Origin: Amoebophrya sp. A120
Taxonomy: Eukaryota; Protista; Dinoflagellata
Reading direction: 5' to 3'
Assembly (NCBI GenBank): GCA_905178155.1
Contig: CAJINV010000003.1
Span: 191,575 to 236,653 of the forward strand
DNA length: 45,079 nucleotides
This document shows, one piece after another, positions 1 through 38,700 of this stretch. Each line of letters opens with the position of its first letter. Within the stretch, counting starts at the first letter, position 1. The notes beneath the pieces are model-generated. The model saw nothing but the letters and a program-made list of their open reading frames with translations. It did not search any database and was not told where the DNA came from. A program made the translations under genes and the position numbers.

Positions 1-246
1 ATGCGGCGAAAAAAGGCGGCCCAAAAAGCCCCCCGGCGGCCCAGAGTTTGGGGCCGGCAGATGACCCACTTGGCGCACGGTATGCGGCGAAAAAAGGCGG
101 CCCAAAAAGCCCCCCGGCGGCCCAGAGTTTGGGGCCGGCAGATGGCCCGCTTGTCGCGCGGTATGCGGCGAAAAAAGGCGGCCCAAAAAGCTTCCCGGCG
201 GCCCAGAGTTTGGAGCCGGCAGCCGACCCAGTTGGCGCGCGGTATG
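1..246. repeat. GC-rich 81-bp tandem repeat (3 copies visible, truncated by the window start)
   Basis: Unit ATGCGGCGAAAAAAGGCGGCCCAAAAAGC...CAGAGTTTGGGGCCGGCAG...GGT starts at 1, 82 and 163. The overlapping ORFs are repeat translations. Confidence 0.93.
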
Positions 247-1946: not shown

Positions 1947-3156
1947 ATGACCGGCCGGAATACAGCGAGCCTGTGCAGCTTTCTCGTTCTCGTTCCGGGC
2001 CTTCTCCAGGACGTGCGCGCGGAGTCTTCCAGCACGTTACTGGGGCGGTTTTTCGGCATGGAGAGCAAGCGAACCGCCCGGGACGTTTCGGCCTGTCCGG
2101 GCGAGGGCGGCAGGTACGGGGACTACAAGTGTAATCACGACTCTACCCATCGAGTGTGCGCAAAGCTCGTGGAGGGAACAGTATAATATTCTGAGTTGTA
2201 AATTGTTCTTGTTGATCTTGATCAAGATGAAATTGAAAAAGCAAAAGGTTTCTCACAAAACCTTGGGCTTGGCCAGATTCATTCGTGGTAATGATTGTAC
2301 AGCGTTTATTATTATTACTTCGTTCCTTATGCTGCAACAGTGTGGGCTTCCTTAGTCCTTATCGTAATCGTTTTCTACCTTTTTGACTTTCTCTTATGAG
2401 ATCCTCTTTTGTTTATCAGGGAGGCAGCTGCGCCGCCAAGAACTGGGGGAGCTCGGATTTCTGGAGTATCACTGGGCAGCCGTCCTGGGCCGAAGACATC
2501 TGCGGCAATACCGCGAACCCGGGGGACTCCTGGTGCATCTGCATGTGGGCCTACGCGACGCTGATTGGGGAAGTATTTTTTCATTTAGAAGTTCAGTTCC
2601 TTCGTCGAGATTATCAGAGATGAATCGCTATATATTTTCTTTTTGTGGATGTGGATTGGATTTGTCACTTCACTTCACTTGCTTCGTCTATTTTGCAAAT
2701 GCAGCTCCGTCATTTAATATATATGGAAAGTGGGCAGTGAGACTACTTAGAAATGATAAAAGCAATGAAACCCACATCGCAAAAATGAAAACGAAGGTTG
2801 GGTGTGACAACGCGCCGGTGACCTGTGCCGGGACGGACGTCTCCTACGTGCTCCAGCAGTACAATGACAACGGCGTGGACCTCGCGGCGGCGCACGACTG
2901 CTTGAAGTCAAAATGCGGCAACTCCACCTCTTCCTCCTCGTTGCTGACCTCCAGTCGCAAGCTTTTGCGGGCGGTGAACGACACGACCGCAGCGGCACCA
3001 GCTGCGCACGCCGCGACCCCCAGCACATCCGCGTCGGGCCGTGCGGCGGCCGGGCATGCGAGGAGCGCGGTGGACTTCGTCGCTTCTACAGACGAGGGGA
3101 CGATTTCCAACGCGGTGAAACACGCCGACTCCGATCCCGTCGCAGTTGCTGCGTAG
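1947..3156 (+). CDS. Secreted Cys-rich protein, DUF2237-like
   Basis: Exons 1947-2180, 2420-2572 and 2797-3156, joined in frame by GT-AG introns 2181-2419 and 2573-2796. Signal-peptide-like N-terminus. HRVCA and PGDSWCICMWAY resemble the DUF2237 motifs HxVCA and PGDxWCLC. Confidence 0.75.
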
Positions 3157-4789
3157 AGCGGTGGCCTGTGCACGAGGACCAACTGGCTCCTGATCGCGTC
3201 GTCGCGTGAGACGATGCACGTGAGTAATGGAGAATTTGAATTTGCGACAGGCGCGCGCCACGCTTCTATTTCTGTTGATAGTTGTTGCGAAAAAATAAAA
3301 ATTTCGCTCGCAATGTGAGTGAGTAGAAGTTCGATATTCTCAGTACAAAACTTCTGACCTGATGATAGATTTACAATTTATGATTTGAAGATGAACCCAA
3401 AGCGTCTCTGGACGCCGTTGTAGTCGACACGGATGAGTCTTCTCTATACTGATTGAAAAGTTATTATTGCCCGCTAATTGGGTAGTAATAGTATTTCGTA
3501 CGGCCGAAAGGTACCTTTATTTGCAGAATCCTGAAGCAATTTGTTACAATTTCTATTTCGCGCGTCCGTTGTCCACGGATAGTATCTGAATCGTGAAAGT
3601 AAACATCAATCTTTGACCATACGAGAAGAACCACTTGGTGCTGCCGCTCGATGGAAAAGCGTCGGGTACAGGCAGCACTGGCAAAGATTTGAATTGTGAA
3701 GAACAAAAAGAACGACCCGAGCAGCTTTACGACGCTGATACGGGCGCACTTAACTTTTGTAATTACCTATGATGATGATGTAGTTTTTAGGTTCACCACC
3801 CCGTCGACCTTCCCCGCCCTGCAATCAGAATCGGTCTACTTGATCGCGATAAGCATTAAAAGCTGTAATTTCGGGTGATGGAAATACAATTTGTATGCGA
3901 TGTGAGTTACTATACCTTCTCCGTCAACTACATCCAAAGTGAAGAACCCAATCTGGCGATTGATGCTAATGTACTCATTTGGAAACTTTCTCAAATAAAT
4001 CAGCGTTCTTGAAGATATGTCAATTGACCAGATCATTATGTAAGAATTCGTCAAGATGTAGATGTAACTAAAGTATATATAATGTTTGTGAAGTCTGTGC
4101 CTCCATCTAGCAGTAGCTTCACTCCTACCATGAGCAGCACCTTGCTGCGTATCTGTTCGTGTCTAGCTGCATCTCCGGTGTATTTGACGAGTTTTGAATT
4201 TTTCGGTTCGTGCGCAACATGTCATTCGTTCCGAGCGGTAGTTCCACACTCGGATGAGTTTCTCTATCGTGCAAAACAGGAAAGATCGGTGAGCCGTTTG
4301 TTTGCCAAGGCTTTTTTCCTCCACAGCCAGTGGTCACATGTAAAAGTAAAACACGTCGAGGCTTTGTCCGATTTCAAGCATACAGATTTTCATTTTTCAT
4401 CTTACTACCCACTCCCCATCCCAGGACCATATCGCGTTTCACCCCACATTCCCATGAACACTATGGCGTCATCAAGAAAGATGGTCGTGCTGCGTATGTA
4501 CTAGGTGTAGGTAGCCTTACTTCTTGCGCCCTTCTTTACTTCCGGATGTGGAAAATGAAGTACTTCGGTCTCTAGGTGTGGATGATTTATTTCGATTGGC
4601 CTGCATAGATAACTTTTTCCTTACTGCTCTCCGCCAGATACTTACATTCATACGATGTTGCCTCTTTCACCAAGATCGTGATCGCTGAAGAATTGTATGT
4701 GGACCGCTTTGATGATCAACAATACTCCATTGCCGCGAGGACCACGACCGGTAGTTGTTTGACCTCACACTATCGGCACAAGGAACAGG

Positions 4790-6082
4790 ATGGCGTTCCT
4801 GTTTCCTACTGTCGTCGAGAGCGTGTCACGCCCAACGGTGAATCAGCTGATCCGGAGCCACAAGAGAAAGGCGCCCCTGCGCCTATACCAGTACGCAAAC
4901 AACCAGTACCCAAAAATCACAAAAGGTACAAGTCTTATCTAGCTGCAGCTAGCACGTACTTTCATATGTTGACATTGACAGTGTCACATTCAACGCTCGT
5001 CCTCCCTGTAAAAAAAAGGTTAGTCGACGACGATCACATCAAAGTTTGTTCTGAGTCCTGTACACACATGATCCAGATTGATTACATTCATAAATCGGTC
5101 CTCGAACTGCAGATGAACAACACCGTGCTGTCGAGCGAACCTGTATAATTTGTGTATATGATGATGATCAAAAAAAAAAAACAAAACAGCCGTGACCGGT
5201 GGTGTGCTTGGCGGGCTGGGTGACGCGGTGGCGCAGTGGCTGGAGAAGGATCCGAAGGTTGACAAGAACTGGAAGTTTGATTGGCAGCGCTGGGGTGCGT
5301 TTTCCGCGTTCAACCTGGCCTGGGCGGGGGTGCCGCTGCATTTTTACATCAACTTTTTGGAGAACAAGCGGCGGAATTTCGGTCTGGTGCAAAAAATGTT
5401 CGTGACCCACATTCTGTACAACCCGTTCCTCTACTTTCCCTCCTTCTACCTGTGCCACGGCGCGCTGATGGGCCAGTCCTTTGGGCACATCCAGCAGCGG
5501 CTTCAACGGGAAATGCCGGACGCGTTGGCGCAGTGTCTGCAGTTCTGGATCCCGATCAATTTCGTGCAGTACACCGCGATCTCGGCCAGTGCGCAGGTGC
5601 TGTTTTTGTCGGTTGCCAACGTCGCGTGGTGCGTCATCCTCAGCAGCAGTTCGTCCGACGGGGACGCCAGTCCGGCGGCGACCATCACGATCACGGAGGA
5701 GTCGCGGACCAACTCGGACACGACCATCTCCAGCTCCACTACTGTACAAGAGGTGTTCGACCACTCCCATCGCATTCGCGTAGAAGACGGGGTGCTACGG
5801 GTGCTCGACTTGATGGACCCCGCGCACACGGCGCAGCAAACGGCGTCCGACTTCGCGGAGGGGCAGTTCCGGCGGGAACAGGACCTACTCGCTGGGGAGT
5901 TACTGCCCGAGCTGCAGGGAAAAGTGAAAATAAGAGGCTTTTTACACCCGACAAAGAACACTACGACCGGGACTAGTAGCACAACTACCTCGTCAACATC
6001 AACCTCGTCAGGTGGATCGGGAGGTGGAACAACGACGACCACAACCTCGACGATAGCTCGCGATCTCGCGGCCAAACTGTAG
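4790..6082 (+). CDS. Mpv17/PMP22 family membrane protein with a low-complexity C-terminal extension
   Basis: Exons 4790-4925 and 5190-6082 (GT-AG intron 4926-5189, phase 1) give ...YPKITKAVTGGVLGGLGDAVAQ...FDWQR...FWIPINFVQY...SVANVAWCVILS, which is typical of the family. Confidence 0.88.
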
Positions 6083-7336
6083 GGCCGCTACACCTGCTGA
6101 GACATAAAGAAGCAGCACAAGCAAAAAGTTGGTGGATCATGGGACGACTGAAGATGGTGGTGGGTAAAGTGAAACAGATGCATTCAACAAATTGCTTAAA
6201 CTTGATTCTTCGCGATTTTTCCAAGCGATGTGCCTCGCCAAGGATCGGAAAGACTGGTAGGGAGCGCCTCGATATGCCAGAAAGGTGGATCATGTCGGTT
6301 GTGCTTCGTGGTCTCAAGTCGGATACTCGAGAAATCACGGAAGAAAAATGGAGAAATCCTCCTCCTGCACCTGATATTTAGTGCCTTATCTCGGCGTAGA
6401 GGCGGCAGAAAGCTTCACTATCGCTGTCATGTATGATGTTGCCATGCTCTGTCCTCGAGTACCATATTCAATTTCAATCCATATCGAATTTTTCTTTCTG
6501 GACGAGCATTTTCTGCAAAATGGTTTCCGCACATAGAGATTAGTTTCCCATGGAGCACTCCTGACGGAACTTATTGTACAAGCATCTTGCTACAACTTTA
6601 GCTTTGCTTTTCAATTTCAAGAAACAATGCGGTGCAATAATTTTCCGATATTTTTGTTCGCGCAGCTGATAGCAGTGCCACCGAAATTTAAATTTTGGTG
6701 TGTTGCTGGTATTCAGATCATTTCAGAGCTACCCGAAGTGCGACGCGGAGCGGCCAAATGGATACTCCTGCTGTCCGCACTGGTGCTCTTTATTTTCGAA
6801 GCAGCTGCGCCTGCGGCTTGCGGCAGTTCCGCAATAGGTTTGTTTCTGTGTTGATATATGCCAAGAGCTTTTCATCACTGTGACGATTGAATTACTCGCA
6901 ACATAACAAGCAAAACAAAACATGTGCAGCAAGAATTATATCCTTTCGAATTCTGGTCTGGCAAGGTATACTTGCCGGCGTTTTCGACAAAGCCTCGTAG
7001 ATTGGCGACCATGGGAGCAGCTGCCCATGCAGCTTTCTACTAAACAAGATTGAGACATTTTGCAAGTATGTTGCGAAAGATGTTATATAACTTTGATTTT
7101 TTCAACAGGAGCAAGTTGAAGATCTGTATGTTGAGGTCAAAAAGTTTAGTCTGGAATAAAAGGCACGGTAGAAGAGCCGGTATCCTTTGCTGATCTCGAA
7201 ATACAGAGATCACCGAAGTAGAAGTTGGACTTTGTGGCGGTGTTCCCATCCTTCGATATGCCATCTTTGCTCTTTTGGAAAGAGCAATGATGGCATACCG
7301 AGTCAGTGCTTAGCACTGCATTTATTTTTGATATAA

Positions 7337-9638
7337 GAGCGGGGTAACAAATTCTGACGAGTTGTGGCCGTCCCACTTCTCACCCGCCCGGCCGGGTGGG
7401 TGACTAGTGGGACGGAACCAGGATCCTGACCAGCTGGCCGGATCTGAAAGCCTCAAAAACAACGCTTTTTCTTTTCCGCACCTGATTCTGCTTCCTACCA
7501 GCCACACCCGCAGGTCTTGCAGGAGGTGGTAGAAAGAAGATTCAGCTTGTGGTAAAGAAAGTGTTGCTCCGGCTTACTGAAAGCCTCAAAAAGCACAGCT
7601 TTTTGCTTTCCGCGCCTGATTCTTCTTTCTACCAGCCACGTCTGCAGGTCTTGCAGGAGGTGGTAGAAAGAAGATTCAGCTTCTGGCAAAAAAAGCGCTG
7701 CTTTGGCTTGCTGAACGCCTCAGAAACGTCGTTTTTTGTTTTCAGCGCCTGATTCTTCTTTCTACCAGCCACGTCTGCAGGTCTTGCAGGAGGTGGTAGA
7801 AAGAAGATTCAGCTCGTGGTAAAAAAAGCGTTGCTTTGGCTTACTGAAAGTCTTAGAAACAGCGTTTTTTGTTTTCCGCGCCTGATTCTTCTTTCTACCA
7901 GCCACGCCCGCAGGTCTTGCAGGAGGTGGTAGAAAGAAGATGCAGCTCAGGGTAAAAAAAGTGTTGCTTTGGCTTACTGAAAGCCTCAAAAGCAGCACTT
8001 TTTGTTTTCCGCACCTGATTCTTCTTTGTGCCAGCCATACCCGCAGGTCTTGCAGGAGGTGGTAGAAAGACGATTCAGCTCGTGGCAGAAAAAGCGTTGC
8101 TTTGGCTTATTGAAAGCCTCAGAAATAGCGTTTTTTGTTTTCCGCGCCTGATTCTTCTTTCTACCAGCCACGCCCGCAGGTCTTGCAGGAGGTGGTAGAT
8201 AGAAAACTTAGCTCGTGGCAAAAAAAGTGCTGCTTTGGCTTACTGAAAGCCTCAGAAGCAGCGTTTTTCGTTTTCCGCGCCTGATTCTTCTTTCTACCAG
8301 CCACGTCTGCAGGTCTTGCAGGAGGTGGTAGAAAGAAGATTCAGCTCCTGGTAAAAAAAGCGTTGCTTTGGCTTGCTGAAAGCCTCAGAAGCGCCGTTTT
8401 TTGTTTTCCGCACTTGATTCTTCTTTCTACCAGCCACATCTGCAGGTCTTGCAGGAGGTGGTAGAAAGAAGATTCAGCTCGTGGTAAAAACAATGTTGCT
8501 TGGGCTTACTGAAAGCCTCAGAAACAGCATTTTTTGTTTTCCGCGCCTGATTCTTCTTTCTACCAGCCACGCCCGCAGGTCTTGCAGGAGGTCGTAGAAA
8601 GAATATTCAGCTCGTGGCAAAAAAAATGTTGCTTTGGCTTACTGAAAGCCTCAGAAGCAGCGTTTTTTGTTTTCCGCACCTGATTCTTCTTTCTACCAGC
8701 CACAACCGCAGGTCTTGCAGGAGGTGGTAGAAAGAAGATTCAGCTCGTGGCAAAAAAAGCGCTGCTTTGGCTTATTGAAAGTCTCAGAAGTAGCGTTTTT
8801 TGTTTTCCGCGCCTGATTCTTCTTTCTACCAGCCACGCCCGCAGGTCTTGCAGGAGGTGGCAGAAAGAAGACTCAGCTCGTGGCAAAAAAAGTGTTGCTT
8901 TGGCTTACTGAAAGCCTCAGAAACAGCGTTTTTTGTTTTCCGCACCTGATTCTTCTTTCTACCAGCCACGCCCGCAGATCTTGCAGGAGGTGGTAGAAAG
9001 AAGATTCAGCGCGTGGCAAAAAAAAATGTTGCTTTGGCTTACTGAAAGTCTCAGAAGCGACGTTTTTTGTTTTCCGCGCCTGATTCTTCTTTCTACCAGT
9101 CACACCCGCAGGTCTTGCGGGAGGTGGTAGAAAGAGGATTCAGCTCGTGGCAAAAAAATCGCTGCTTTGGCTTACTGAAAGCCTCAAAAGCAACGCTTTT
9201 TTTTTTCCGCGCCTCATTCTTCTTTCTACCAGCCACACCCGCAGGTCTTGCAGGAGGTGGTAGAAAGAAGATTCAGCTCGTAGTAAGAAAAATGCTGCTT
9301 TGGCTTACTGAAAGCCTCGGAAGCAGCGCTATTTGTTTTCCGCACCTGATTCTTCTTTCTACCGGCCATGCCCGCAAGTCTTGCAGGAGGTGTTAGAAAG
9401 ACGATTCCGCTCGTGGTAAAAAAGCCGTTGCTTTGGCTTAGTGAAACCCTCAAACGCAGGATTTTTTGTTTTCCGCACCTCATTCTTCTACCAGCCACAC
9501 CCGCAGGTCTTGCAGGAGGTGGTAGAATTTCCGCCGTTCTCGTGGTCAGGATCCTGGTTCCGTCCCACTAGTCACCCACCCGGCCGGGCGGGTGAGAAGT
9601 GGGACGGCCACAACTCGCCAGAATTTGTTACCCCGCTC
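7337..9638. mobile_element. Non-autonomous TIR DNA transposon, PIF/Harbinger-like
   Basis: 96-bp TIRs at 7337-7432 and 9543-9638 with one mismatch, starting GAGCGGGG. TAA flanks both sides (7334-7336, 9639-9641), matching the 3-bp TAA/TTA TSD of PIF/Harbinger. No transposase ORF; the interior is a tandem array. Confidence 0.88.
7445..9527. repeat. ~133-bp tandem array (16 core copies) inside the TIR element
   Basis: Core GCAGGTCTTGCAGGAGGTGG (or close variant) at 7510, 7644, 7777, 7910, 8043, 8176, 8309, 8442, 8575, 8708, 8841, 8974, 9108, 9241, 9374 and 9503. Confidence 0.95.
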
Positions 9639-10203
9639 TAAGTACTTACATTTTTCTCTGATTTTTCTACCTCGTTGCTGTTTTCCTTGTCTGTGTTTTC
9701 GTGTATCGATCACATTTGTTGATCTCTCCTTTCAAAATCTTTGACGCAGGCTACGATCAATTAGGTTTTGAGTAAATATATAGATATCTGGATCTGATAC
9801 GTTCCCTGGTGTTTTACTCTTATTTGAACAAAGAGGATCCTGTCATTAAGACGATGACCTCCTTCTTTACGTATGTTATGTGTAGTAAGTTGAGAGGAGG
9901 TTTTTTGGTATTTATTCCCTCGTTGATAAAGTGAACCCATTGTGCTTCTCTGATCCTGACTATGGCCACTTTATGACCACCTCCTGATCACAGAGGAAAT
10001 ACTGAAGGATTTTGCTCCTTTGCGCCCGCAAAGAACCACGACAATCATGTTGGTGTTCTTCTTGCGCGTGGTCGACAAGTGCGACGACAGCTACTTGTGA
10101 TTCAGCGGAGAGCCGCCGCGGGGGCGGATCAACATACAACGCAGTGAAGACCGCCGCCTGACTTATTTCGCAGCTTCTCACGACATAGCGCTGCCGTGTT
10201 GTA

Positions 10204-13200
10204 ATGATGGCCGGCGGCGCCGTCCAAGAAAAGAAGGCTGGCGACTCAAGAACTACACCCGGAAGAAGTAGCACGGATGATGGTAGTACGGCGCGAAGAG
10301 ATGTTGGTGACCACACGACGAAAAGCAGTAATAAAGCGCGCACCGGCGAGGATCACCACCACCTCGGTGGAACAAATAATGACCCGGAGCTGCAGCAGAG
10401 CGCCGACTACGGCTCCGCCACATCGTCCAGTGCCGTCTCAGGGGAAATACGGATGCCGAGCTACATCACGTCACAACACCGTTCGGGCGCTAGCGACACG
10501 GCGACGGAGTCCTCGAAAAACGCCGCGGAAGTCCCTCCACCACCGCCGTATCAAACAAAAAAAGTTCGTCACGATCACTCATGCGCATTTTTGCAATACA
10601 AAATTGGCTGTCATGCGTAAAAATGCATGACAGCCAAGCTTCATAGGGGATTTCCCTATTATTTCTGCAATACAAGGTAAACTTGTGATGCTAAAAAAAT
10701 TTGTAATGCAAAACCTGCAAGTTAGTGACTGTGACAAACTTTTTTCTTTCCATACGCCGGACGAGCTGTATATCAATCCGGGAGGAGGCCCATCCACTTC
10801 CACAGCGACCGGCGACGAGGCATTTGCAGCAACCGCTGGACGAGGGGGAAATAATTACTACGGCGGTAATACAATTACGACGGCTGATGTCGGTGCTGCC
10901 GCTTCTTCGGCCTTGGAAGATGATTATCAACCGAGAGGACTTGTCCCGGAGGGCGAAACTAGCAGCCTCAACAACCCGCCGCATCCCTCCTCGAGCGAGG
11001 AAAATAATGATGGCGGCGCAACGAGCACCGTGGATATCGAGCCGATTCCCATCGGCGCAGGAGGGGGAAATGCCAGTCTCAACTCCTCCCAGCATCCACC
11101 TCCGGGGGATTTGATGTCCTATTTTCCCAGCACCAGTTCCTCTAACATCACTCCGCCGCCGGGAATGGTCTCCCCGGTGAAATCGCCCGGCAAGCATATA
11201 GTGCCCAGCTTCGGCGGAGCCGGAGGCGCGAAAAAGGGTGCGCCGCTGGGCAAAAAGGGTCCCAGCGTCGACTCGGCACCGAGTAACATCCTCCGAATGC
11301 TGGGAAAAACCGCCTCTGCCGCGTCCACTAACGCGGCGAACAGTGCAGGAGGGGGCCCGCCCGGGAGCAACCCCGGTGGCGGAAAAGGGGGGTTGCCACC
11401 CGGAAACAAAGGTATTGCTACCTGTAGTTTTGTGTGTGAACGTGAAGCATGTTGCTTGCTGTTACCCAACAACTCAAAAATCTATGCAATTTGAAGTTCG
11501 TAACGTGTAACACTCTAGGTGGCGGCGGTTTCTTTGGGGGAATGGGTGTTGGGGCGCAGTCCAAGGATGAAGCAGGAGAGGACGAGAATAAAGTCGAGGA
11601 GGAAGAAGACCCACAAAAGGTCATCGAGGATCTAGAAGCAAAGGACGGCTTCGAGAAGGAAAACGACCTGGTTACATTCTTCAAATACAAGGTAATCAAT
11701 GTTATACCAGTTATACCTGGTGTCGTCCTGTTGCTGTTTCTATTGATGCAGACTCGACATGCTTCTTGTGAGTGAAAACATAGCAGCTGCATCGCAAGCA
11801 ACAAGGAACAGTACCAAAGTCAAGTAGGCCTACTTCATGAACTACGTCGAGCTCGACCTTCTTATCTTGACGCGCAAGTACATCGATTTGATTTTGTGGA
11901 GAGATCTGACCTTACGACCACGACAGGTGGCCGGCGACTACACGTACACGCACTCGTCCATAATTGGCTCCGCGGATCAGCGGATGCCCCGGACGGGGAA
12001 ACTGAACGTGACCAGGCAAGATCACATGACCAAGCTGTTCTGCGCGATCGCGTTCTTCTACCGCCAGAAGCGCCCCTTGACGCTGGTAGAAATGGCGACA
12101 ACGCGGTTCCGCTTCTACGAAGATGTGGACCTCTTCTTACCCCCGGGCTTCGTCGATACCGGCGAAGAAATCAAGGCACTAGAAAGAAGATGGATAGCGC
12201 AACTGCTGAAAATTAGAGGTACTTTGCTGAACTACATAGCAGGTCCTGCTTTTCATGTTCACCTCCGGGTTCGATTTGCAATCCATATCCAAATTTTCGT
12301 TCCAGCAGAGCGACGTAGGGTACAAATAACACGTTACCTCCTGATTGCTGCACCAGTAGAAGACATGTGTACTAGAACAAGTTCAGAGCTACCTCTACAT
12401 TCTGTACTCCAAAAATCACGAGAAATCTATCACCAGGTGCGGTGTTTGGTGCCGTGTGGCGTTCGGATGACGTGCTGGGGATCTGCCAGAATTGCTTGAA
12501 AACCACGGTGCACGTGTTTTCCTCCTCCGGTTTTTCCACGAAGTCGCAGAGCTACAAAGTTTCCCTGCATTTCGTGTGGCCCCACCTGGTTGTGACAAAG
12601 CGGGAGGCCAAGGCCATCCGCGGTGCGACAATCGAGTTTCTTCGGGAGAACACGTCCCCGGAACAGGAGGCGTTGCTCCGCATCTCCTTCCCCGACTACG
12701 TTTACAACCCGGACAGCGAACAGACACCATGGGAGGAAATTTACGACGCCGCACCAATTGAAGGCGCCAGTCTGAAGATGCCCTTCAACGACAAAGGTAT
12801 AGCTTGCTTGAGTTTCATCACTTTCAACTCCTCTCCTCAACGAGCGCATTCTTGGTAGTTTCGTCTTACAACCATGCTTGGAATAGAATCTACTTTGAAT
12901 GAGAATTATATGATGCAGATGTGAGGTTCCATCGAACTACATGTGGTAGAAAAAAATCTCCTACAGGTATAAAACCTAACCGCGACACGAAGCAGAGCGC
13001 GAAGCTGGAGAACCGGCCGAAGCTGCCGGTGGGTACGTTTCTGGTGAACTTGGTGGCCTCGCAGGTGGAGGAATCCACCATGGAACTGCTGTACGGGCCG
13101 GACGATAAGGAGGACCTGAAGTGGTTATCGGACGGAAGCATCCGGCTCGACATGGAAAATCCCCCGCCCGTGGCGAACATCTGGATTTTTGCCTCCAACA

Positions 13201-26046: not shown

Positions 26047-26489
26047 CCCGGATGGAGTTAGCAGTTTATCACAGCGACAACATCTTCACATCCGAGAACG
26101 AAAAGAAGTAAGTACATGACTTCCACGAAATAATGATACGCAGCGGCTGCAGTCCAAGAGTGAAAGCCACCGTTTAAGAATATGGACACGTACAAGGCAG
26201 ATGATTGTTCACAAGAACCACGACCGCCTAGCTATGTCCTGGGCAGTTTTGTGAGCGATTTTAGTGCCTCATGGTTGTGTTCCTAGAGGACATTGTTCTT
26301 GTCGAGATTAGTCATATCAGGAATGTCGTGTGTCAATTCCTTCGTGCTTCATCCACTTTCCTCCACCTCTTTACTTTACTCTGTTATCTGTGTGCTTATT
26401 GCCTGCACATTTCTTGTTCTGGCATTCGTACTCAGGTCATGTTTCACTGAGAAGTGGAAGTGCGTGGCCACGGCCAGCGAAGTAAGAAG

Positions 26490-27956: not shown

Positions 27957-28841
27957 AGATCAGGGACTTCGTTGAGAAATGCGAGCTGGCCGTACTGGGC
28001 GTTTCAATAGTGACCACAGGACAGCCAGACCACTAATCGACAAGATCTGTTGCCCAGAATCATTCGTGCGGAACGGTAACAGAATTCATTGCGTTTTTGT
28101 TATTTTGACGTCTCTTTGGACGGGCTTCGGCTTCGCAGCATTCGTTTTGCCAGATCGTCACGTTGACTGTTGAAAGAACCTGACTGAAACTGATACAATA
28201 CTTCTTGATGCTGGTGCCCTTATTTTCTCACCCGACCGCTCGTGGATTTCCTAGGTTACATCTCGATGAAACGCGAAATTGATTCTGGAGATTTCCCGTC
28301 GCACGGCCGTGTTTCTGTTCTCATAAGTACGTTAACGCTATGCCCTCGTGTTGCCCCTGTCGTGAACGTGATCGCATCGTGTACAATCTTTTGCTGTGAC
28401 GACGTCCTATTTTTCGCGCATCGTCCAAAAGAAGATCTTCGTTCTCGTAGACATTCACATGCAAACTTTCCGTTTTCGTCCTGTTTTTTTTTGGGTCGTC
28501 TGACATCTCTCGTGCAACGGGTGCCCACCTCTTTTTTTAGCCCGCATTTTCACGATCTCCAACACTTTTTTCGCACCAGGTAATATCACCACATCCAGAC
28601 TCCTTTTCTCGCATCCCACTTCGGGAAGTCGTGACACAAACAATCCTTGTTGACACCAGCACTCAGGCTCTAGTAGAGCGGTTTTCTTTTTTTGGTATCA
28701 ACAACTGGCGCAGAAGCAGATCAACATCGTCGAAATAGGCTCCTTTCTTGACGAAAGCGAGACCGTCTTATCTTCATCGGATCACTACTTCTTTTTGTTT
28801 GAAGTCACACCTCCTCTGTAGTAAGTTCTTCAGCAACAAAA

Positions 28842-31267
28842 ATGGCGCTCCAGCAGTCGCAGATGAGCATGGGCAGCACGCGGCGGCCGCACCGGTCGAT
28901 GTACGTGAGTAAGTCGGACAATCTGCATATCAACTGTAAAAATGTCTGGGTCTGGAAGATTCTGACACTTGTCATGCACGTTTTGCATGAGCCATGATGT
29001 CTGTGAAGATGCATACCCTAGCAATACAGATTTTTTGAGGGCGTCTTGATGCGTATTCCGCATGACAAATGCCTTCTCAGCGTAGCAAAAATTGCATTTC
29101 CTTTGGTACTCATGCAATACAGATTTTTTTGGAATCCAAATGCAGCATCACAAGTTGCATTCTTCCAGACCCAGACACTTTTACATTTGATACTGCACCA
29201 GGTCGTCTCCCGGAACAGCGGTATGCGCGCGGACTCGGGCACTTTCGGGAAGAATCCGCGGTTTGCGGCGAAGCGACTAATGTCCCCCACCGGCGCGGAC
29301 TCACCCTGGGGAAAGGCTTTCCTCGAGCACAACCGCTTCTTCAAGGATCCGCTGGAATCACAGATTGGGTCCTGCAGTGGCAAGAAGGCCGGCTTCGGCT
29401 ACGGCAGCCGACCCACGTACGTCCGCGGCACGCCAAACCTGGGACCAGGCACCTACACACCCATCACCTCAGTCGCGAAGACCGCATCCAGTTTGGACGG
29501 AAAAAAGTAATGAAATTGTGCTTGATGGTGGTCGGTCTCGGTTTTCCTATATGAGATCTTGGTCCTCGTCGTGTGCAGTAAGCTGCAAAAATGTTGGGAC
29601 GTGCTCTTCAGTGCTGTATCTCTTATTTCTCTATACTGTGTTGATATGCTGCTGTATGCATATCGTACTGAACGACAATGCAAAAACAAAATTAATGTAT
29701 AAATTCAGGTACTGCAATGTAACTCTGAAGCAGCGAACGAAGGTGGTAGTTGGAGCGGTAAGTCCACACGAGGAGGCACGGAAGCCCGGTCCGGGCACGT
29801 ACACACTACACTCCGACATCAATGGTTTGTACGTGACACGCGGCGACAAGAAGAACTGGGTCGGACCACCAGCGTATAATTGCATCTAATTTGATGATAT
29901 CATGCGTGCCCGTGCTAAAATTCTTCATGAGCGTAGTCCCTCGTTTAAAAAAATACTTCGATTTCATTTTCGAGCTACCACGAATGTAGTCCTGTTTCAT
30001 CTCCGACTTTTTTCGTGCTTTTCAATCCAATGTGAAATCCTACAGGCCAAAAATGGGCATGGCTTTGAAGGAAGTAATCGACCTTGCTGGAGATGCTTTG
30101 TACAATGTAGCAGAAGACATGGGCACCAAGAACGTCAACAATTGGGCGGGAAAGTCTACTTTCGGCTTCGCAAAACTCGGAAGTATCTGTTTTTTTGTTT
30201 GTTGTAGTGCATCATGTTGCAATTGTTTCTGTTTTTGTTTTGTGGCGTCTGATGAAAAATCAAAGCGCGCCCCTCTTTTTTCTAGCGTTCGCTCGCGACA
30301 CGAGTATTGTCTGCATGATGATGAACGGAGCTCGTGCAGTTGAAAACGAAAAGCGATATATAAATTTTATCCTCCGCTGCATGTATGATAATGATCCCCT
30401 ATCAATTACAGACCCACACTCTTCCCAATCTCCCGACGGCGAACTTTACTACTCGCACGTAAAGTTGACGGAGGACTACACGAAAGTTGCGCGCGCCAGT
30501 GGACTCGGAAAGGGCGAGCGACCCGTCCTGAACCCCGAGCAAACCACCGCGGGCCCGGCCAGCTACTTCCCCGTGGCTTCGTGCGCAAAGACCACCAGCC
30601 CGCTGGACGGGTTCACGGTCCGCAACCTCTTATCAACTGCAAAAATGTCTGGGTCTGGAAGATTTCATGTTTGTCATGCTTGTCTGGCATGACTCTTAAA
30701 TCTGTCATGCAAGTTACCCGCCAAGAGCTTCGTTTTTCTGTGATGCACAACCGCAGTTTGTGTTTGTCATGCAGAATAGGCAACACCTAGGGCTAGGAGC
30801 TCAGAAACTTGTCATGCTGCGCCAGCATTTGTAGCCTCATCATGAGACGCCACCCAGCGTCACAAGTTTCCAGACCCAGACATTTTTACTTTTGATACCT
30901 CTCCCCGGTCACCCAGTTCGGGAAAATCAGCTCGCTGAAAATGATACCAAATGTAAAAATGTCTGGGTCTGGAAGATTCTGAGATTTGTCATGCATGTTT
31001 TGCATGACCCAGGATGTCTGTAATGCACGACCGCGCATCACAGATTTTGAGCGGGCTTCCTGATGCCTACTCCGCATGACAAACGCCCTCCCCGCGTAGC
31101 ACAAACTAGACTCCTCTTGCTGGTCATGCAATACAGATTTTCCTAGAGTCCAAAGTTAGCATCACAAGTTCCAATCTTCCAGACCCAGACATTTTTACAT
31201 TTGATAAATGAAGTCCATGACCAGCATCGCACCCTCGATGAACCGCACCATCACTCCCGGCGAGTGA
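28842..31267 (+). CDS. ODF3/SHIPPO-like PG-rich-repeat axonemal protein
   Basis: Exons 28842-28927, 29198-29506, 29709-29873, 30046-30182, 30412-30630, 30903-30944 and 31212-31267 (three GT-AG introns, three introners) give a continuous frame to TGA at 31265. Repeats LGPGTY, PGPGTY and AGPASY. Confidence 0.78.
28928..29192. mobile_element. TIR introner, family A copy 1
   Basis: ~32-bp TIR TATCAACTGTAAAAATGTCTGGGTCTGGAAGA...TCTTCCAGACCCAGACACTTTTACATTTGATA. TSD CTGCA at 28923-28927 and 29193-29197. Contains an in-frame stop. Confidence 0.92.
30631..30897. mobile_element. TIR introner, family A copy 2
   Basis: Same TIR as copy 1. TSD CCTCT at 30626-30630 and 30898-30902. Removing 272 nt gives RNLSPVTQ. 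Confidence 0.92.
30945..31206. mobile_element. TIR introner, family A copy 3
   Basis: Ends TACCAAATGTAAAAATGTCTGGGTCTGGAAG...CATTTGATA. TSD AATGA at 30940-30944 and 31207-31211. Interior is collinear with copy 1. Confidence 0.92.
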
Positions 31268-32570
31268 AGAAGATCAAGCTGCTCCGGACGTTTGGTAAAC
31301 GTGGCACATAGCCGCGCAAACGACGGAGAAGAACGCGGAAACAAAAAGACAGTTGATTTATTCTTGGCCTCAGAATTTATTGTGTTGTTGATGGATGAAG
31401 GCACGAAAGCGGTGACTACAAATTTCATCTGATATTATGCTAATTCGGAAATTATTACAATCGGACCATATACTTCTAAGCAGGTAACTAACAAATCTCA
31501 ACATTATCGAAAGAAAAGAACCCTCAGTATCGTCTTGATGTAGCTTTTCTTTGTTCGAATTCAATTTGACCATGTACATAGTTTTCTTGTTTCGTGACAA
31601 CTTTCACATGTAAATTATTTTGCGCGCCCGATGGTGGCTGTACAATAAATAAGGTAAACTCAACATTTTCAGTTCTTGTAGATCATTTGGACTTGTTAAC
31701 TTGTTTTGCCCTGTTAATAAATATTTCTGTATTTCTTCATGTACACAAACAAAAAACCGATAAGAATACGCCACTAGGATGCATCGGACTATTCTTCAAA
31801 TGCTGCGTTGATGTTGTGTTGAGTTAAGCTGTATGCACTTACCTAACGTGCAAAGCAAAGGAAGCCGCTGCAACTTGTTGTGTGTTTTGGTACTGAGCAG
31901 GGGCGGTGTGGCTGATGTCGCTTTTCATTGTCCGACGTCGAGACCTTGACCTGAGCGCAGCGTAAGGCATTTGAATTCAACATGAACACGAGCATCAGAT
32001 CACGAGCGAAGGCATACAACAGGACTAGATCTTCATGCACGCGGGAGAAATCTTAATCTCAATCTTTGACGAGAGCTGTCGCCGTGACACGCGAGAATGC
32101 AACCACCTAACATGCTGCACAGTAGAGCCTTGCAGTAGCTTCCAAGGCGCCGCGGCAGCGGCACGACGAACAAGAGCGCAGTGAGTCTGTGGAGCTCCTT
32201 TTCCGAGCAATCGAAGCGACGCTTGTTGAATACGTAGGAACAAGCTTGCGTTGGTGAGCAGCATTTCCGAAGAAACACTACAACAGGATAATTCCAACAA
32301 GTTGGTTGTAGAGCATACGCTCATCGTTACTCTTATTCGAAGACGTGAAGATTGCGACGCAGATATAGGTGGAAAGGTAAAAGCGATATATTACTACAGC
32401 CGAGCTCTCAGGCAGTTTCTCGTGTCAGCCACAACAAGATGAAGATGGCAAGAGGAGTGTGATGAAGAACTTTCTGTTGAGAGGACCACGACGGGCGACG
32501 GTGCAGCAGCGTTTACTTCTGCCATGAGTTGTAGCGAGCACGGGCGAGCACGAACAGGATTAACACTCGC

Positions 32571-35078
32571 ATGTTATGGGGGAGCAGACGTCCACTTCCA
32601 ATCGTGCGTTGCGATGGTGGCGACGGCGAGCAAGACCATCAGGCGACCCGGAGCATTAGCAAGGCGTCTGCCGTCTCGGATTTGGAACCCGAGGGTTCTC
32701 CGAGTACCGCACGAAGCACAGGGACGAGCGCGGCGTTCCGTTCGCTTCCCAACACTCCCACAGTTGGGGAAGAGCGCCCCGAGTTCCGTTCTTTTCGCAG
32801 CCAGCGAGATGAAATACACGAATATGGTGCCACGACTCCATTTTCCACTCGCGACGCCAACAATTTTTATCACCGCGAGCCGGCCGGCCAGCGTCTTGTC
32901 CCGAGTTGGGTCGAGTCGCGGAAAACTGGGGAACACCAGGCGAAGTCTTTTCTGCACAGCGAGTTTGTACGGAAGCGCTCCCTGGCGCGCTTCGCGTCCG
33001 CGAGTGAGGAAGCGGAGGTCGAGACACAAACTCTGACGGAGGCCCTGTCACGAGCGCCCAGCTTGGTAATGTTTGAATCTTCAAGTAGATGGACAAGTAC
33101 TTACTATAATGTGCCAGGCTTCGTTGTCACAGGACCGGCGCTTATACAAATAGGAAGAATCTTTCATCACTCATCTTCGAATTACAGGTTCTGGAGCCCA
33201 GTTTCGAGAGCAGTTGGCGCACCGAAGTGATGGCCGGAATCTGCTCTGGCGTGGTGCAAGTGGTGCTTTTCAACCCCTATGACCGTGTATCAAATGCAAA
33301 AGTGTCTGGGCCTGGAAGGATGCGAACTTGTGATGCGTGTTGCGGATCATACAAAAATCTGTGTTGCATGACTTGCAAAAGGTCCCCATTTCTAGCCACG
33401 CCGAGGGGGCATTTCTCATGCAGAATAGGCATCACCAAGTCCAAGACCAAGGGGCTGCCGCTGCAGAACCTGTGATGCTAGGCCCTGCATTCGAGACTCG
33501 GCGGAGCTTGAAAAACTGCATGACAAATCTCAGAATCTTCCAGACCCAGACATTTTTGCATTTGATACCGTGCCCTGTATTTGAGTGTGATTCACCAGAG
33601 AAAGTTTCTGCACCGCGAGAACTGGGGCCGCAGCTTCTCGGATTTGAACAAGGGTCTGCTGCCGAACTTGCTGCAGCGCGTCATCAGCTACGGCATGTAT
33701 TTTCCGCTCGAACAAATGTGGACCCGGGTACTGCTGAACTGCTTTCGCAGCAGGACAACTACTGGCGGCGCTTTTGTTAATGTCGGTGAAGATCCGGCTG
33801 CCAGTTCTTCCTCCTCGTCCGCTGGAAGTAGCCGTATGAGTACTGATGGCGGTGCATCTACTTGTTCTACTGCAGATAATCGTGATGTGGGTAGTTTTTT
33901 CCCGGGTAAGCAGGAGATCCTGTACGTGGCTCCGCTCGCGGGGCAGCTCACTGGCGCCAGTAGCGGGCTGGCGACAAACTACCTGAGCTTGGTGAAATAC
34001 CGCCAGTACCAGCGGGACACACACAAGCCGCTCATCCACGATGTGCGCAAAATCTTCCACAAAGAAGGCCGCCGTAAGCAAAATGTTATTTGTTCACGAC
34101 TATGCTTTTGTCGTGAATGATGTTCTCGTGAAAGTGTAACTAGTGAATTTTGGTTTTGTTGCTATCAAACATAGAAAAAATCGAAATGCGAGAAGATCAT
34201 TAGAGGTACGTGCATGCAAAAGAAAGAAAAATTAAACAATAAAAACCGAAACAGTAACGCGCGGTCTGGGAGCTACGATCTGCCGGGATTCCGTGTTTGG
34301 GAGTGTTTTCACCTCCCTGCGAGTGTTGCTCCAGGACGAGGAACGTCAGTACCTTGTGAACTTTTTCGCCGCGTCTCTGGCAACGGTGCTGTCCGGTCCC
34401 CTGAACTACGCCCGCAACCTGCAGTACGCCTATCGTAGCGGGTGGAGTAGCTCGGAGACGGAACGGCCGATGCGATCCGAATCATCCACTAGTAGTCAAA
34501 GCAGGCCCGCCTCCGCGACGAACGAAAACAGCACGAAATTTCAGCGCGGACGGGTGCTGGAGGACTATCCGACGGTGCGGCGCGTCTTGCGAGAGCTCCA
34601 CCGCGATCTGGTGTACGGGGGTCTGGCCGGGTATGGGAGTGTCAGGATTGAAAACGACAATGTTGAAATAACTTGTAATGCATAAAATCGATACCAGTTG
34701 TGTTGGAAGCCCAATTGCCGAGCGGCGCATATCAAATTTCGGCACCGTCTAAATCCTGTTTGTCATGCTGCTTAGGGACAGAAGGCGTCCTTTGTCATGC
34801 TACTTTAGTAGCTGCATTGCAGACCCCAAACAGGCTGACAGTCGGCGCCATTTGCCATCCCTGCAAGAGAGGCATTTCATGCCTTGCAATCTATGCATGA
34901 GAAATTATTTCAACTCTGACGATTTCAATCCTGACGCTTCCATACCGGGTGGCGAAACGTGGGAATGAAGTTGCGAATCGGATGGGGCACCCTGCGCGTC
35001 GGAGTTGGCATGGCCACCGGGAATTTCTTTTACCGCTACTTCGAAAACCTCCTGAACACCACCACGCTGTCCTTTTGA
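32571..35078 (+). CDS. Mitochondrial carrier family (SLC25-like) protein with an N-terminal extension
   Basis: Exons 32571-33065 (start uncertain), 33188-33287, 33573-34073, 34255-34631 and 34950-35078. Spliced motifs FNPYDRALYLS, LTRGLGATICRD, SGPLNYARN and LRIGWGTLRVGVGMA. Confidence 0.82.
33288..33567. mobile_element. TIR introner, family A copy 4 (inverted relative to copies 1 and 3)
   Basis: Same TIR. TSD CCGTG at 33283-33287 and 33568-33572. Its 3' subterminal CATGACAAATCTCAGAATC is the reverse complement of the 5' subterminus of copy 3. It splits NPYDR|ALY. Confidence 0.92.
34632..34944. mobile_element. TIR introner, distinct family
   Basis: TIR TATGGGAGTGTCAGGATTGAAA / TTTCAATCCTGACGCTTCCATA. 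TSD CCGGG at 34627-34631 and 34945-34949. Removal restores GLAG|WRNVGMKLRIGWG. Confidence 0.9.
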
Positions 35079-35751: not shown

Positions 35752-38700
35752 ATGAAGACCCTGTTTCTCAAATTACATTTTTTGCAACAATGTTGCCTTA
35801 TAGCTTTGCGGTCCAGCGCATTTATTTTTGGTGACCGACCACTATGTCGCGCTCGCGCAACAGTTCTTTTCGCAGAGGCGAGGACCACCGGAACCACGCA
35901 ATTCCCCGGCGATGATGACCTCCAAACAGCGCAGCCGCAGGCCCCCGACCCCGGCACAACGACGTCCGATCATCTTGCCACGTACCTCGATCAGTTTGGG
36001 CCCCCGGACGGCATGCTCGAAAAGTATTTTGAGAACGTGAGACTACGAAGTTCCGTGCCATGGGAGAACACGCTGAACCGGTGGCCGTTGCACGTGGCAG
36101 ATCTTTCGTGGGAAGACGGACAAGGTGTCTGGGCCAAATTCGTCGAGCGTGTGGGAAGCCATTTCCTGTCGCCACGTCGATCGGCAGCCGAGCGGCTGCA
36201 AGAGATCGATTCATGGTTTATCGAGGAAGACCGTTCTTTCGTGGCCGGTGCCGCAGATGGGTCGCCGGAAAATGTGGGGGCAAGGACCGCTAATATGGTC
36301 GATGCTGCTGGTGACGAAGACTCATCTGAAGCAGAGCCCTCGCTGTGGCACTTCCTGCCAGCGAACTTTTTCGCGGACGGAAAAGATGAGAACGGCCTGC
36401 CACTCCGAGCGGTCCTTCGAGACGCTTTGGGACCTCTTTTGGACGACCACGAAGAAGAACCCACCCTGGAGGACTTCAAGGAAAAGGTACCCAAACGCAT
36501 ACGGTTGCTTCTTCCTTGGGAGGTGCTGGAGCGAATCCTCTTTCTTGGGCGGTTGCGGCGAGTAGCAAATGCAAAATCTTCCTGCGGGTCCATCTTCGCC
36601 CCTGTGTGTTAGTTTACCGGACTTTGGAGCTCACGCGGGCTGCAGTTGTATAGTAAGTATGCATGAGTAGAACGACAATAAACGAATGTACTTATTTTTT
36701 ACAGACGTGGAGACCCAATTGATTTCATTCTGTGGTGCTCCGGCATTGCTTCTGAGTCTACTGGCACTTACACTTAGATCGTCAGGTCTGCTACGTGCTC
36801 GAAGCTTTGCAATACCGCTTTTGTGCGACCTAGCCTTGCAAATAATTCATCGGATACATACAGATTAGTACATGTGAATTACCTAGTCCTAGGGTTGTTG
36901 TCTGGGCTCAGTAAGAAGTTTTTCCTTGGATACAGAGTGTTCCACCGGTATTTGGGGAAGGACGAGGGGTTCCTCCTTAGCTGCCGCGAGTTCTGGCTTC
37001 ACCACGTAAAAACGCTGAAAACGAACACCAGCGTGCACGTTGACGGATTAGCGCAAGGGACGCGGAGTATCGAGCAGTGGATGGATTCGCTGCACGAGGG
37101 TCGGCCACCTCCGGCGACGTCGCAAGGCGACCCTCGTGGCATCCAAAAGCAGCGGTATTTCCTGGCCTTGAACTTAGCGGCTATTGAAGACGAACTCTCA
37201 GCGGCGCGGCTTGCGGAGGAGAATCTCGCACAGGACTGGTTAATGACGGATGATGAAGAAGATTCCTCAGAAGTTTCTCTTTCCGAAGAGGAAGAGGCTA
37301 GTTTTCAGGAGTACGCCAGCACCGTCGATGCACTGGCCACTCGTAGTGAATTTGCAGTGCGCCTCGGTCGCATAGTATCGGCTTCTGAGCAAGTAGTTGC
37401 ACAACCGGCGCAACAAGCAGGAATAAACAATTCTTCCGGAGGACCATCGAGCGGTCCACCCGCCTCGGTCGTACAGCCGCCAACGTTAGAAGAATTTCTC
37501 GACGTTCTGGCCAAACACCCACCGCAATTCCTGCAACCGCCAAAGTGGCAGCGGGCCTTCTGGTTCTTTTTGTTCGGTTTACAGATGCCGGGTGGGCAGC
37601 AACTACTGCCCCCGCAGTTCGCGTTCGGCGACGTTGCTGGGTGGGCGCACCGGCAGCTGAAGAAGCTCGCACCCTGGCTGACCCACAACGTGAAAAAGAA
37701 CTTCAACCAGAGTAGTGCTGCACCATCTTCGGGTACTAGTTCTGGTGCTCCCCCTCCGGCCCCCCCTCCGCCCTTCGGACCTGCGCGGTACATACTGGCG
37801 GTGGTGAAGCTGTTGCACGTTTTCCTGCGGGAGGTAACCGCGGCGCCGCCGCTGCTGGCCTTGCGGCAGCGATTGCGGGACGATCCGGACGTTCCAAAAC
37901 TGCTGAAGTACGTGGGCAAACACCGGGTTTTCCACGATTGCTTCCGGCATTTCCGCTACGCGACGCGCGACGGGATGCTCAGGGCGGGAGGTGGTGTGGC
38001 CACGAAAACGGATTTCCGGTCCTTCTTTCAGAACATTCTCCGTTCCCACTACCTGGACGTGGCGGATTTGCGGCGCAAGCAGCACAAGCGCGACCGCGAC
38101 GCAGAAAACTTCGACACCGCCGCCGCCTTTTGGGGCAACTTGCTGTGGGTCCTGATTTGCGTGACCGCGGTTCTGGCTCTGGGAAACATTGCCGCGGTGG
38201 TCTATCTCCGCTGCTCGTGGGTACGGAAGCGAAAAGAGGCGGCCGCCGCAAAAGCCGCAGACCGGGCCGCCTGGTCGTTGACGCCGCCGCGCCCAGATGT
38301 TGCAGGAGAGTATGGAAAGAGCAGTTATGAGGACGGGAAGAGGAGCGAGCGAAGCAGCTGCGGTTATAGTTCCTCACCTACATTTGCTAGTCATCTGGCA
38401 GATGATAGCATCAAGATCATCCAGGTCGGAAACAACAGGAGCGCGGCCGAGCTAAACCCGGCTGCAGCACCGACCGCCGTCGGTACAGAATTTTGCCCTG
38501 GTGCCGTGGTTGCATCACAAAACCTTCTTCCAGACGATACCGACACGAAAGTTGAGTTTTCGGGCCCGACTGCGGCCACCACGCCCCTGTTAGTATCGGA
38601 AAATAAAGACGAAGACGCGTCACAACTATTGTGCCCGGCGGGTGCAGCAACTCCTAATGCAAATGACGGGATCATGTCTGCGACTGCGTTTGTCTTTGTT

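What the first reader, a model, noticed from the sequence alone, without database searches (positions are those of the whole stretch)
2181..36936. The element terminus supplies the host donor consensus: N+TAY matches GTAY, and the acceptor appears set by distance from the hairpin
Seen: all 21 canonical introns modelled here start GTA; 16 are GTAT or GTAC and only 3 have +5G. If each introner intron starts at the last base of the left TSD, its 5' end reads N-TAY (N-TAG in the degenerate copy). The resulting introns are 10548-10758 GT..CC, 28927-29196 AT..GC, 30630-30901 TT..TC, 30944-31210 AT..TG, 33287-33571 GT..GT, 34631-34948 GT..GG and 36562-36936 GT..GA. Four of seven get a perfect GTA donor, and the 3' cut always falls 4 nt after the terminal ATA whatever the sequence. 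Inference: the spliceosome reads +2..+4 (TAY) from the transposon end and measures the 3' site from the TIR stem. One rule would then cover canonical and non-canonical introns.
Basis: partly seen in the sequence, partly recalled or inferred. Interest (0 to 1): 0.85.

Follow-up and report, generated by a model that had tools for sequence, protein, structure and literature searches.

The report
Amoebophrya introners spliced without GT-AG
These are the known transposon-derived introns of the marine parasite Amoebophrya A120; mutation patterns in about 200 related copies suggest the cell likely reads only "UA" at the element's start as the donor signal and likely needs neither the usual first G nor the final AG, which gives a testable rule for how such introns are removed.

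Summary
The window is Amoebophrya sp. A120 DNA, and the seven elements are its published introners: terminal inverted repeats, TAT...ATA ends, 5-nt target duplications (TSD). Removing an element plus one TSD restores the frame, and at three sites restores a protein colinear with an ortholog. But mRNA cannot fix the register inside a TSD, and the "4 nt after ATA" follows arithmetically from the chosen 5' cut. The predicted G bias fails: G at TSD position 5 in 49 of 147 oriented copies (44.7 expected). In the 5' arm, T1/A2 rarely vary while T3 does (1-4 vs 7 copies); the 3' arm shows the reverse (8 vs 1-2; Fisher p 0.003-0.08). That mirrors canonical GTAN donors (+2,+3 fixed, +4 free). One ortholog-polarised TSD mismatch argues against it. 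A hairpin ruler is doubtful: the degenerate copy has unpaired ends. A branch-point A at -7 is my preferred, untested alternative. Known elements, plausible new splicing rule, unproven.

The parts
10549..10754 (.). Introner, 206 nt, TIR 19/24; TSD CGCCG at 10544-10548 and 10755-10759; inferred intron 10548-10758 in + strand gene 10204-15138
28928..29192 (.). Introner, main family, 265 nt; TSD CTGCA; inferred intron 28927-29196; folds as a long hairpin (z -7.1)
   Evidence: exact removal matches P0002 and ortholog P0003
30631..30897 (.). Introner, main family, 267 nt; TSD CCTCT; inferred intron 30630-30901
30945..31206 (.). Introner, main family, 262 nt, 5' end TAC; TSD AATGA; inferred intron 30944-31210
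   Evidence: contig of run X1 (RNA by guess) resumes at 31206 without the element
33288..33567 (.). Introner, main family, 280 nt, in the opposite internal orientation (by eye); TSD CCGTG; inferred intron 33287-33571 in a mitochondrial-carrier-like gene
34632..34944 (.). Introner, second family (TATGGG ends), 313 nt; TSD CCGGG; inferred intron 34631-34948
36563..36932 (.). Degenerate introner, 370 nt, 5' end TAG, TSD GCGAG/CAGAG (both differences synonymous); 375-nt removal is in frame, the GT..AG option 36562-36935 would shift the frame
2181..34254 (+). 22 modelled canonical GT-AG introns, all modelled with GTA donors (9 GTAT, 8 GTAC, 4 GTAA, 1 GTAG); acceptors mostly CAG
   Evidence: three in gene 28842-31267 are fixed by P0002, five lie in the eIF5B-like gene
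28842..31267 (+). Host gene (A120 protein P0002, 337 aa) with three introners and three canonical introns
35844..39540 (+). Host gene (A120 protein P0001; start codon uncertain, annotated start is further upstream) carrying the degenerate introner

Best explanation
The seven elements are non-autonomous TIR transposons with 5-nt target duplications that are removed exactly from the mRNA, likely by the ordinary U2 spliceosome cutting one base before the element (N|UA, with only +2 U and +3 A read) and likely setting the 3' cut by a short fixed distance from the first A of the terminal ATA, a predicted branch point at -7, with no AG needed. Shown: element anatomy, insertion in both orientations, exact removal at three sites, no G or AG preference in the TSD. 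Inferred: the register (about 0.55-0.6 on its own), the spliceosome as the enzyme, and the branch point (weakest step). The TIR symmetry would make either orientation spliceable, and retention of one TSD makes insertion silent.
For: Exact removal: P0002 is colinear with ortholog P0003 (69% identical) at all three sites, and an X1 contig resumes at 31206. Orientation is random: 42:40 in the largest family of 82. Polarised terminal variants among 209 oriented copies, after manual correction: 5' arm has 7 variants at base 3 (TAG 3, TAC 3, TAA 1) but 1 sure variant at bases 1-2; 3' arm has 8 at its last two bases but 1 at the first A of ATA (Fisher p 0.003). Arm positions 4-24 deviate symmetrically (113/3622 vs 98/3593), and the two asymmetries run in opposite directions, so strand-biased mutation does not explain them. 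The sure 5' exception reads G|TGT, and two of three uncertain ones give G|CAT and GT|AAT, that is GT or GC donors. Canonical donors show the same pattern: +3 A fixed, +4 free. The A at -7 lies in a YTRAY motif in 68 of 158 copies, and branch-point-to-AG spacings that put the A at -6 to -8 are documented in Yarrowia, Giardia and Trichomonas (PMC2483917). U1-70K, U1A, U1C, SF1, SF3B1-5, U2AF and PRP8 are listed for A120 (PMC7789003 supplement).
Against: No lariat or junction read was seen. The asymmetry test was devised after the G test failed and rests on about 20 variants; counting three uncertain 5' exceptions and one doubtful 3' end gives p 0.08. In L121 the A120 ortholog has Lys, matching the right TSD copy at position 4, where this register keeps the left copy (Arg); it needs an exonic K>R change. 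A codon-likelihood scan over 46 TSD mismatches favoured no register (permutation p 0.17-0.83). One 3' arm ends GTA, lacking the proposed branch A (L054); 90 of 158 copies lack YTRAY there; 55 canonical introns show no fixed branch-point position. In predicted folds the +2..+4 bases are paired in 30-35 of 40 copies, which would hide them. [quoted passage not shown] Most copies come from a relative (80% identity in one exon), whose splicing I did not observe.
Confidence: 0.38

Rival explanations
1. One reading: same 5' register, but the 3' cut is measured from the base of the TIR hairpin.
For: Intact copies fold strongly (z -7.1) and the stem reaches the element ends in 30-35 of 40 copies. The 5' asymmetry supports the register.
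Against: The degenerate 36562 copy folds like its shuffles (z 0.53) with about 10 nt unpaired at each end but is annotated as removed exactly. Terminal pairs are broken in many exonic copies (ATC, ACA, TAG, TAC ends). A hairpin cannot explain why the same pair tolerates change on one side only. The predicted G bias is absent.
Confidence: 0.18
2. The register is different (2, 3 or 5 TSD bases kept) or slides in a coupled way within the TSD, so both copies are used in part.
For: L121 fits a register of 3 or less. L109 offers GT|AAT one base upstream. 27 of 50 TSD mismatches are synonymous, somewhat more than I would expect if one copy were always intronic. The register scan is flat.
Against: Only the N|TA register lines the constrained bases up with the invariant +2,+3 of canonical donors. 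Weak strong/weak-base polarity suggests right base 1 and left base 5 are intronic (10:2 and 1:4).
Confidence: 0.2
3. A non-spliceosomal or separate machine excises the hairpin, as proposed for euglenid nonconventional introns.
For: U1 snRNA not found in A120 or A25. No GT or AG selection in TSDs. Euglenid TIR/TSD introns leave as circles without a lariat (PMC11282704).
Against: The 5' constraint copies the host donor pattern. U1 proteins and most spliceosome proteins are present. In Fritillaria the U2 spliceosome handles comparable introns (PMC13326754).
Confidence: 0.12
4. Mirror register: the 3' end ATA|N supplies the acceptor (like ACAG) and the 5' cut lies 4 nt upstream of TAT.
For: By consensus alone it fits as well: canonical acceptors have -4 A in 29 of 55 and -3 C in 38 of 55. 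L121 is compatible.
Against: The base that would be the invariant -2 A varies in 6 exonic copies (ATG, ATC ends). No G excess at TSD base 1 or GT at bases 2-3.
Confidence: 0.08
5. Both ends are read at once (N|TAT...ATA|N), leaving 8 TSD bases and adding one codon.
For: It is in frame, and 8 of the 9 commonest published A120 types are NT-AN.
Against: P0002 and P0003 have no extra residue at three sites. The X1 contig resumes at 31206 with no mismatch, as exact removal predicts. The NT-AN excess is reproduced by consensus-seeking alignment.
Confidence: 0.02

Closest known systems
Amoebophrya A120 introner elements / non-canonical introns (Farhat et al. 2021, PMC7789003)
   Same: Same genome (window proteins 100% identical to A120 entries); inverted repeats starting TAT with an A-run, 3-5 nt direct repeats, about 240-nt size, hairpin.
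   Different: That paper leaves the border unknown and calls splice sites variable relative to the hairpin. It proposes no register, no donor mimicry and no 3' rule. It lists snRNP27 as undetected, but the gene is in this window.
Micromonas / Aureococcus / Symbiodinium / Polarella introners (PMC11282704; bioRxiv 2020.10.14.339549)
   Same: MITE-like TIR elements whose splice signals come from the element end and the TSD; some work in both orientations.
   Different: Those carry or recruit real GT/GC/GA and AG dinucleotides and so select their target sequence. Here the TSD shows no such selection.
Fritillaria borealis non-canonical introns (PMC13326754, PMC11282704)
   Same: MITE-derived TIR/TSD introns, most without GT-AG, removed by a U2 spliceosome with altered specificity.
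   Different: They have their own preferred ends (AG-AC, AG-AT), with duplicated U2AF and altered snRNA m6A. Here +1 and the 3' dinucleotide appear free; U2AF and m6A were not tested.
Fixed branch-point-to-3' spacing in Yarrowia, Giardia, Trichomonas (PMC2483917)
   Same: Branch A only 6-8 nt from the intron end, which shows the proposed -7 geometry is possible.
   Different: Those keep a strict branch motif and a terminal AG in intron-poor genomes; A120 canonical introns show no fixed spacing.
Euglenid nonconventional introns (PMC11282704)
   Same: TIR hairpin joining the ends, TSD-like repeats, non-canonical borders.
   Different: Their stem starts at +4 and leaves the ends free, and they are excised as circles; here the stem reaches +2 and the product is unknown.
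IS3EU/GingerRoot DNA transposons (PMC10045372)
   Same: TA..TA termini with TIRs.
   Different: Their TSD is usually 6 bp; here it is 5 bp, and no transposase was found.

Membership tests
Amoebophrya A120 introner elements | Located in the A120 genome | tested here: met
   P0001 and P0002 are 100% identical A120 proteins
Amoebophrya A120 introner elements | Terminal inverted repeat starting TAT, then an A-run | tested here: met
   427 of 442 ends are TAT
Amoebophrya A120 introner elements | 3-5 nt direct repeat at the borders | tested here: met
   5-nt exact in 6 of 7 window copies and 203 of 246 copies overall; the search favoured 5-nt repeats
Amoebophrya A120 introner elements | Repeated family | tested here: met
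   four main-family copies in the window; 144 loci in related records; very high depth over elements in run X5
Amoebophrya A120 introner elements | Spliced out of mRNA | tested here: met
   indirect: one RNA-like contig for the 30944 copy, annotated proteins for four copies, ORF rescue for all seven
U2-type spliceosomal intron | GT (or GC) at +1,+2 and AG at the end | tested here: not met
   no GT-AG in any register for the six exact copies; obtainable in 8 of 147 copies
U2-type spliceosomal intron | Constrained donor positions +2,+3 | tested here: inconclusive
   polarised variants, p 0.003-0.08
U2-type spliceosomal intron | Lariat with a branch-point A; dependence on snRNPs | not testable with these tools
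   no raw reads of this strain covered the exons
U12-type (AT-AC) intron | U11/U12 snRNAs and the extended minor donor motif | not tested
   reported absent in A120 (PMC7789003); I did not search the genome
Euglenid-type nonconventional intron | Excised as a circle, no lariat | not testable with these tools
   needs RNA experiments
IS3EU/GingerRoot | TA..TA termini | tested here: met
IS3EU/GingerRoot | 6-bp TSD | tested here: not met
   exact 5 nt in 185 of 219, none at 6 nt (the search favoured 5)
IS3EU/GingerRoot | IS3-like DDE transposase in an autonomous partner | not tested
   no autonomous copy in hand

The most novel reading that the evidence does not exclude
Amoebophrya A120 has a spliceosome that ignores both universal terminal guanosines: it takes N|UA as donor and cuts 6 nt past a branch A supplied by the transposon's own 3' end. 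A TAT...ATA inverted repeat is then a complete splice cassette in either orientation at any exonic site, which explains the genome-wide invasion.
Probability: 0.33. Interest if true: 0.85.

Novelty: new variant of a known kind. Interest (0 to 1): 0.5.

Why it matters
More than 60% of A120 introns are non-canonical, and the genome paper leaves their borders and splicing mechanism unknown. A single rule (N|UA donor, AG-free 3' cut at a fixed distance) would show that the G at +1 and the G at -1, near universal in spliceosomal introns, can both be dispensed with at genome scale. It would explain why these transposons insert at no cost in either orientation, and allow correct re-annotation of tens of thousands of junctions. 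The published splice-site spectra look like alignment artefacts, which matters for anyone using them. The rule makes exact predictions (lariat start at TSD base 5, branch at -7) that existing RNA-seq could test.

Tried and rejected
G bias at TSD position 5: absent. Selection for AG at TSD 3-4: 16 vs 10.4 expected, p 0.08, one of 16 tests; no TSD position departs from a symmetric target-preference model. +5G preference by orientation: 26 vs 31, none. Published NT- excess (Farhat Table S4; Gozashti dataset, family 16: GT 27%, AT 18%, AG 30%, AC 19%) as register evidence: rejected, because sliding each junction to best match GT..AG gives similar values (GT 33-35, AT 11-20, AG 37, AC 14-16) while no single register gives both. 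Canonical GT..AG rescue of the 36562 copy: frameshift. Loss of SNRNP27K as the cause of +4 Y donors: rejected, the gene is in the window with Met141 kept; METTL16 was not tested. Codon-likelihood register scan: flat. Phase-0 excess (75 of 158): p 0.056 after target preference, and identical for registers 1 and 4. Ortholog polarisation for L045, L030, L011, L026: hits did not cover or did not decide the junction residue. RNA: no RNA holder listed on record; raw-read runs X9 and X10 covered only an element arm; element-to-element joints of the DNA-like run crowded the joint table, so no splice junction row was seen. No junction was observed for the 36562 copy. Viral contigs: 0 hits with the 21-nt motif, 68 single 16-nt hits with no element-length match. 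Prokaryote genomes: 0. Rfam: no snRNA or other family in the window. No whole genome was held and no earlier findings existed.
Full report
Identity. Two window proteins are 100% identical to Amoebophrya sp. A120 entries. Farhat et al. 2021 (PMC7789003; I read the abstract, sections 10-12, 16, 25, 32, 36 and text passages of the supplement) describe these introners: over 60% non-canonical introns, inverted repeats starting TAT, 3-5 nt direct repeats, U1 snRNA not found, border position unknown. The elements are therefore known.

Observation. All seven coordinates and dinucleotides are correct. Six copies have exact 5-nt TSDs; the 36562 copy has GCGAG/CAGAG. Keeping any element truncates its ORF. 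My 22 canonical models in the span all start GTA, 17 GTAT/GTAC, 3 with +5G. That is partly circular, but unbiased searches also enrich GTA: 13 of 21 picks in the window and 30 of 62 in related loci, against 21% background. All registers within an exact TSD give the same mRNA, so the '4 nt after ATA' is arithmetic, not a finding.

Exact removal. P0002 is colinear with a 69% identical ortholog, P0003, at all three element sites of gene 28842-31267. A 1696-nt contig of run X1 (RNA by guess) resumes at 31206 with no mismatch and has 1120 nt upstream; the spliced model needs 952 plus a 168-nt leader. This excludes a +3 nt model that reads both ends. For the 36562 copy the GT..AG option shifts the frame, and P0001 has the 375-nt removal; both TSD differences are synonymous, so the protein does not fix the register.

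A larger sample. One exon is 80% identical to its A120 ortholog, so this is a relative, not the same strain. I found 219 elements, 246 with a looser search (203 exact TSD, 32 with one mismatch, 11 with two), including the window's seven. Strand was called with a codon model (cross-validated 95-99% on 120-nt windows at score above 2-4; local and locus calls agreed in 124 of 131). 209 were oriented in exons, 10 were non-coding and 27 could not be oriented.

G at TSD base 5 occurs in 49 of 147 oriented exact copies (33%, CI 26-41%) against 44.7 expected; a true rate of 4/7 has p 5e-9. With a symmetric target preference modelled, it is 58 of 158 against 56.8, and no position stands out. Elements lie 42:40 in the two orientations, and TATG is not preferred at the 5' end (26:31). 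The published excess of NT- and -AN borders (Table S4; Gozashti 2025, PMC12130899, passages and 22 of 58 A120 rows of supplementary file 8) is reproduced by sliding junctions toward GT..AG; the annotation used BLAT and EST2GENOME. It is no evidence for a register.

A test that favours the register. Because the two arms are equivalent for the transposase and orientation is random, any 5'/3' difference must act on RNA. Automatic counts: base 1 deviates in 1/202 5' arms and 5/204 3' arms, base 2 in 2/202 and 1/204, base 3 in 7/202 and 0/204; bases 4-24 are even. Manual checks changed this both ways. L002 moved to the 3' side. An unpaired 3' arm ending GTA (L054) appeared. Three uncertain 5' exceptions appeared: L084 A|CAT at a misjoined site, L102 G|CAT with unclear strand, and L109 GT|AAT. 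Final tally: 5' arm, bases 1-2, one sure (G|TGT) and up to four; base 3, seven. 3' arm, bases 1-2, eight (one of them, L017, classed non-coding by the script); base 3, one, or two with doubtful L080. Fisher p is 0.003 at best and 0.08 with the uncertain cases; L080's doubtful 5' end was left out and would weaken it further. The pattern equals the canonical donor: +2,+3 fixed, +4 free. It contradicts the mirror register, whose invariant -2 A varies six times. The test is post hoc and small.

Results against the register. In L121 the ortholog has Lys, the right-copy residue at TSD base 4; the register keeps the left copy. Codon likelihoods over 46 mismatches (two loci dropped as tandem-duplicated or doubtful) favour no register. 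Strong/weak polarity is 10:2 at base 1 and 1:4 at base 5 but mixed at bases 2-4, which only brackets the cut between 1 and 4.

The 3' ruler. Intact copies fold well, but the degenerate copy does not (z 0.53, ends unpaired), and terminal pairs are often broken. The one 3' base that seems constrained is the first A of ATA, at -7. It lies in YTRAY in 68 of 158 copies, and spacings of -6 to -8 are documented (Irimia and Roy, PMC2483917, passages; my conversion from their BP-AG distances). Against this: 7 vs 1-2 gives p 0.07-0.18, most copies lack the motif, and 55 canonical introns show no fixed branch position. I prefer it to the hairpin, with modest odds.

Why GTAY donors? Parker et al. link +4 U to loss of METTL16 or SNRNP27K (PMC10581693, abstract and section 9), and Farhat lists snRNP27 as undetected. 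But 16579-17277 encodes SNRNP27 (Pfam E 1e-17) with Met141 kept, so that route is closed. METTL16 is untested.

Comparison and novelty. Closest are the algal and dinoflagellate introners (PMC11282704, passages and section 6; bioRxiv 2020.10.14.339549, passages), Fritillaria introns (PMC13326754, abstract, introduction, first part of discussion) and euglenid introns. A related Amoebophrya has canonical introns and U1 (PMC12005148, passages). Termini resemble IS3EU but the TSD length differs (PMC10045372, passages). Four searches found no paper that fixes the A120 register or proposes this rule; the library lacks most subscription journals. Interest 0.5.

Noticed in passing
window 16579-17277 (+): Single-exon SNRNP27 (U4/U6.U5 27K) gene with Met141 kept, although the genome paper lists this protein as not detected in A120; this exact sequence is not in the protein collection, and the residues after the conserved motif diverge from human.
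   Followed up: partly
window 7330-9640: Non-coding element with long inverted ends (by eye) enclosing about 15.7 copies of a 133-nt palindromic repeat (7444-9527).
   Followed up: no
window 1-246, 40344-40452 and 44284-45079: Tandem arrays of 81, 21 and 67 nt.
   Followed up: no
window 18249-22945 (+): eIF5B/IF2-like GTPase gene with five canonical introns and no introner; its first 140 residues look by eye like an extra tRNA-binding OB-type domain (not scanned).
   Followed up: partly
window 31156-31206, run X9: About 135 raw RNA reads carry a main-family arm joined to another flank while no window exon is covered: an unspliced or transcribed element in a related organism.
   Followed up: no
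L001 1-2128: At least five elements in 2.1 kb of one gene, with exons as short as about 47 nt between them.
   Followed up: partly
L002 1572-1800 and L084: The coding strand flips across an element and the TSDs do not match: misjoined assembly at TIRs or a real inversion; L002 also seems to hold a nested insertion.
   Followed up: partly
diverged TSDs, all loci: 27 of 50 TSD mismatches are synonymous, somewhat more than expected if one copy were always free; may mean both copies are sometimes exonic.
   Followed up: partly
Farhat Table S4, strain A25: A25 elements start TTA and its nine commonest borders all start TT, which would fit the same N|TA rule with the cut at the element start; may also be an alignment effect.
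   Followed up: no
window 34074-34254: Canonical intron model in the carrier-like gene is uncertain; a small internal exon is possible.
   Followed up: partly
whole window: All eleven modelled genes lie on the + strand, as in the unidirectional clusters reported for this genome.
   Followed up: no
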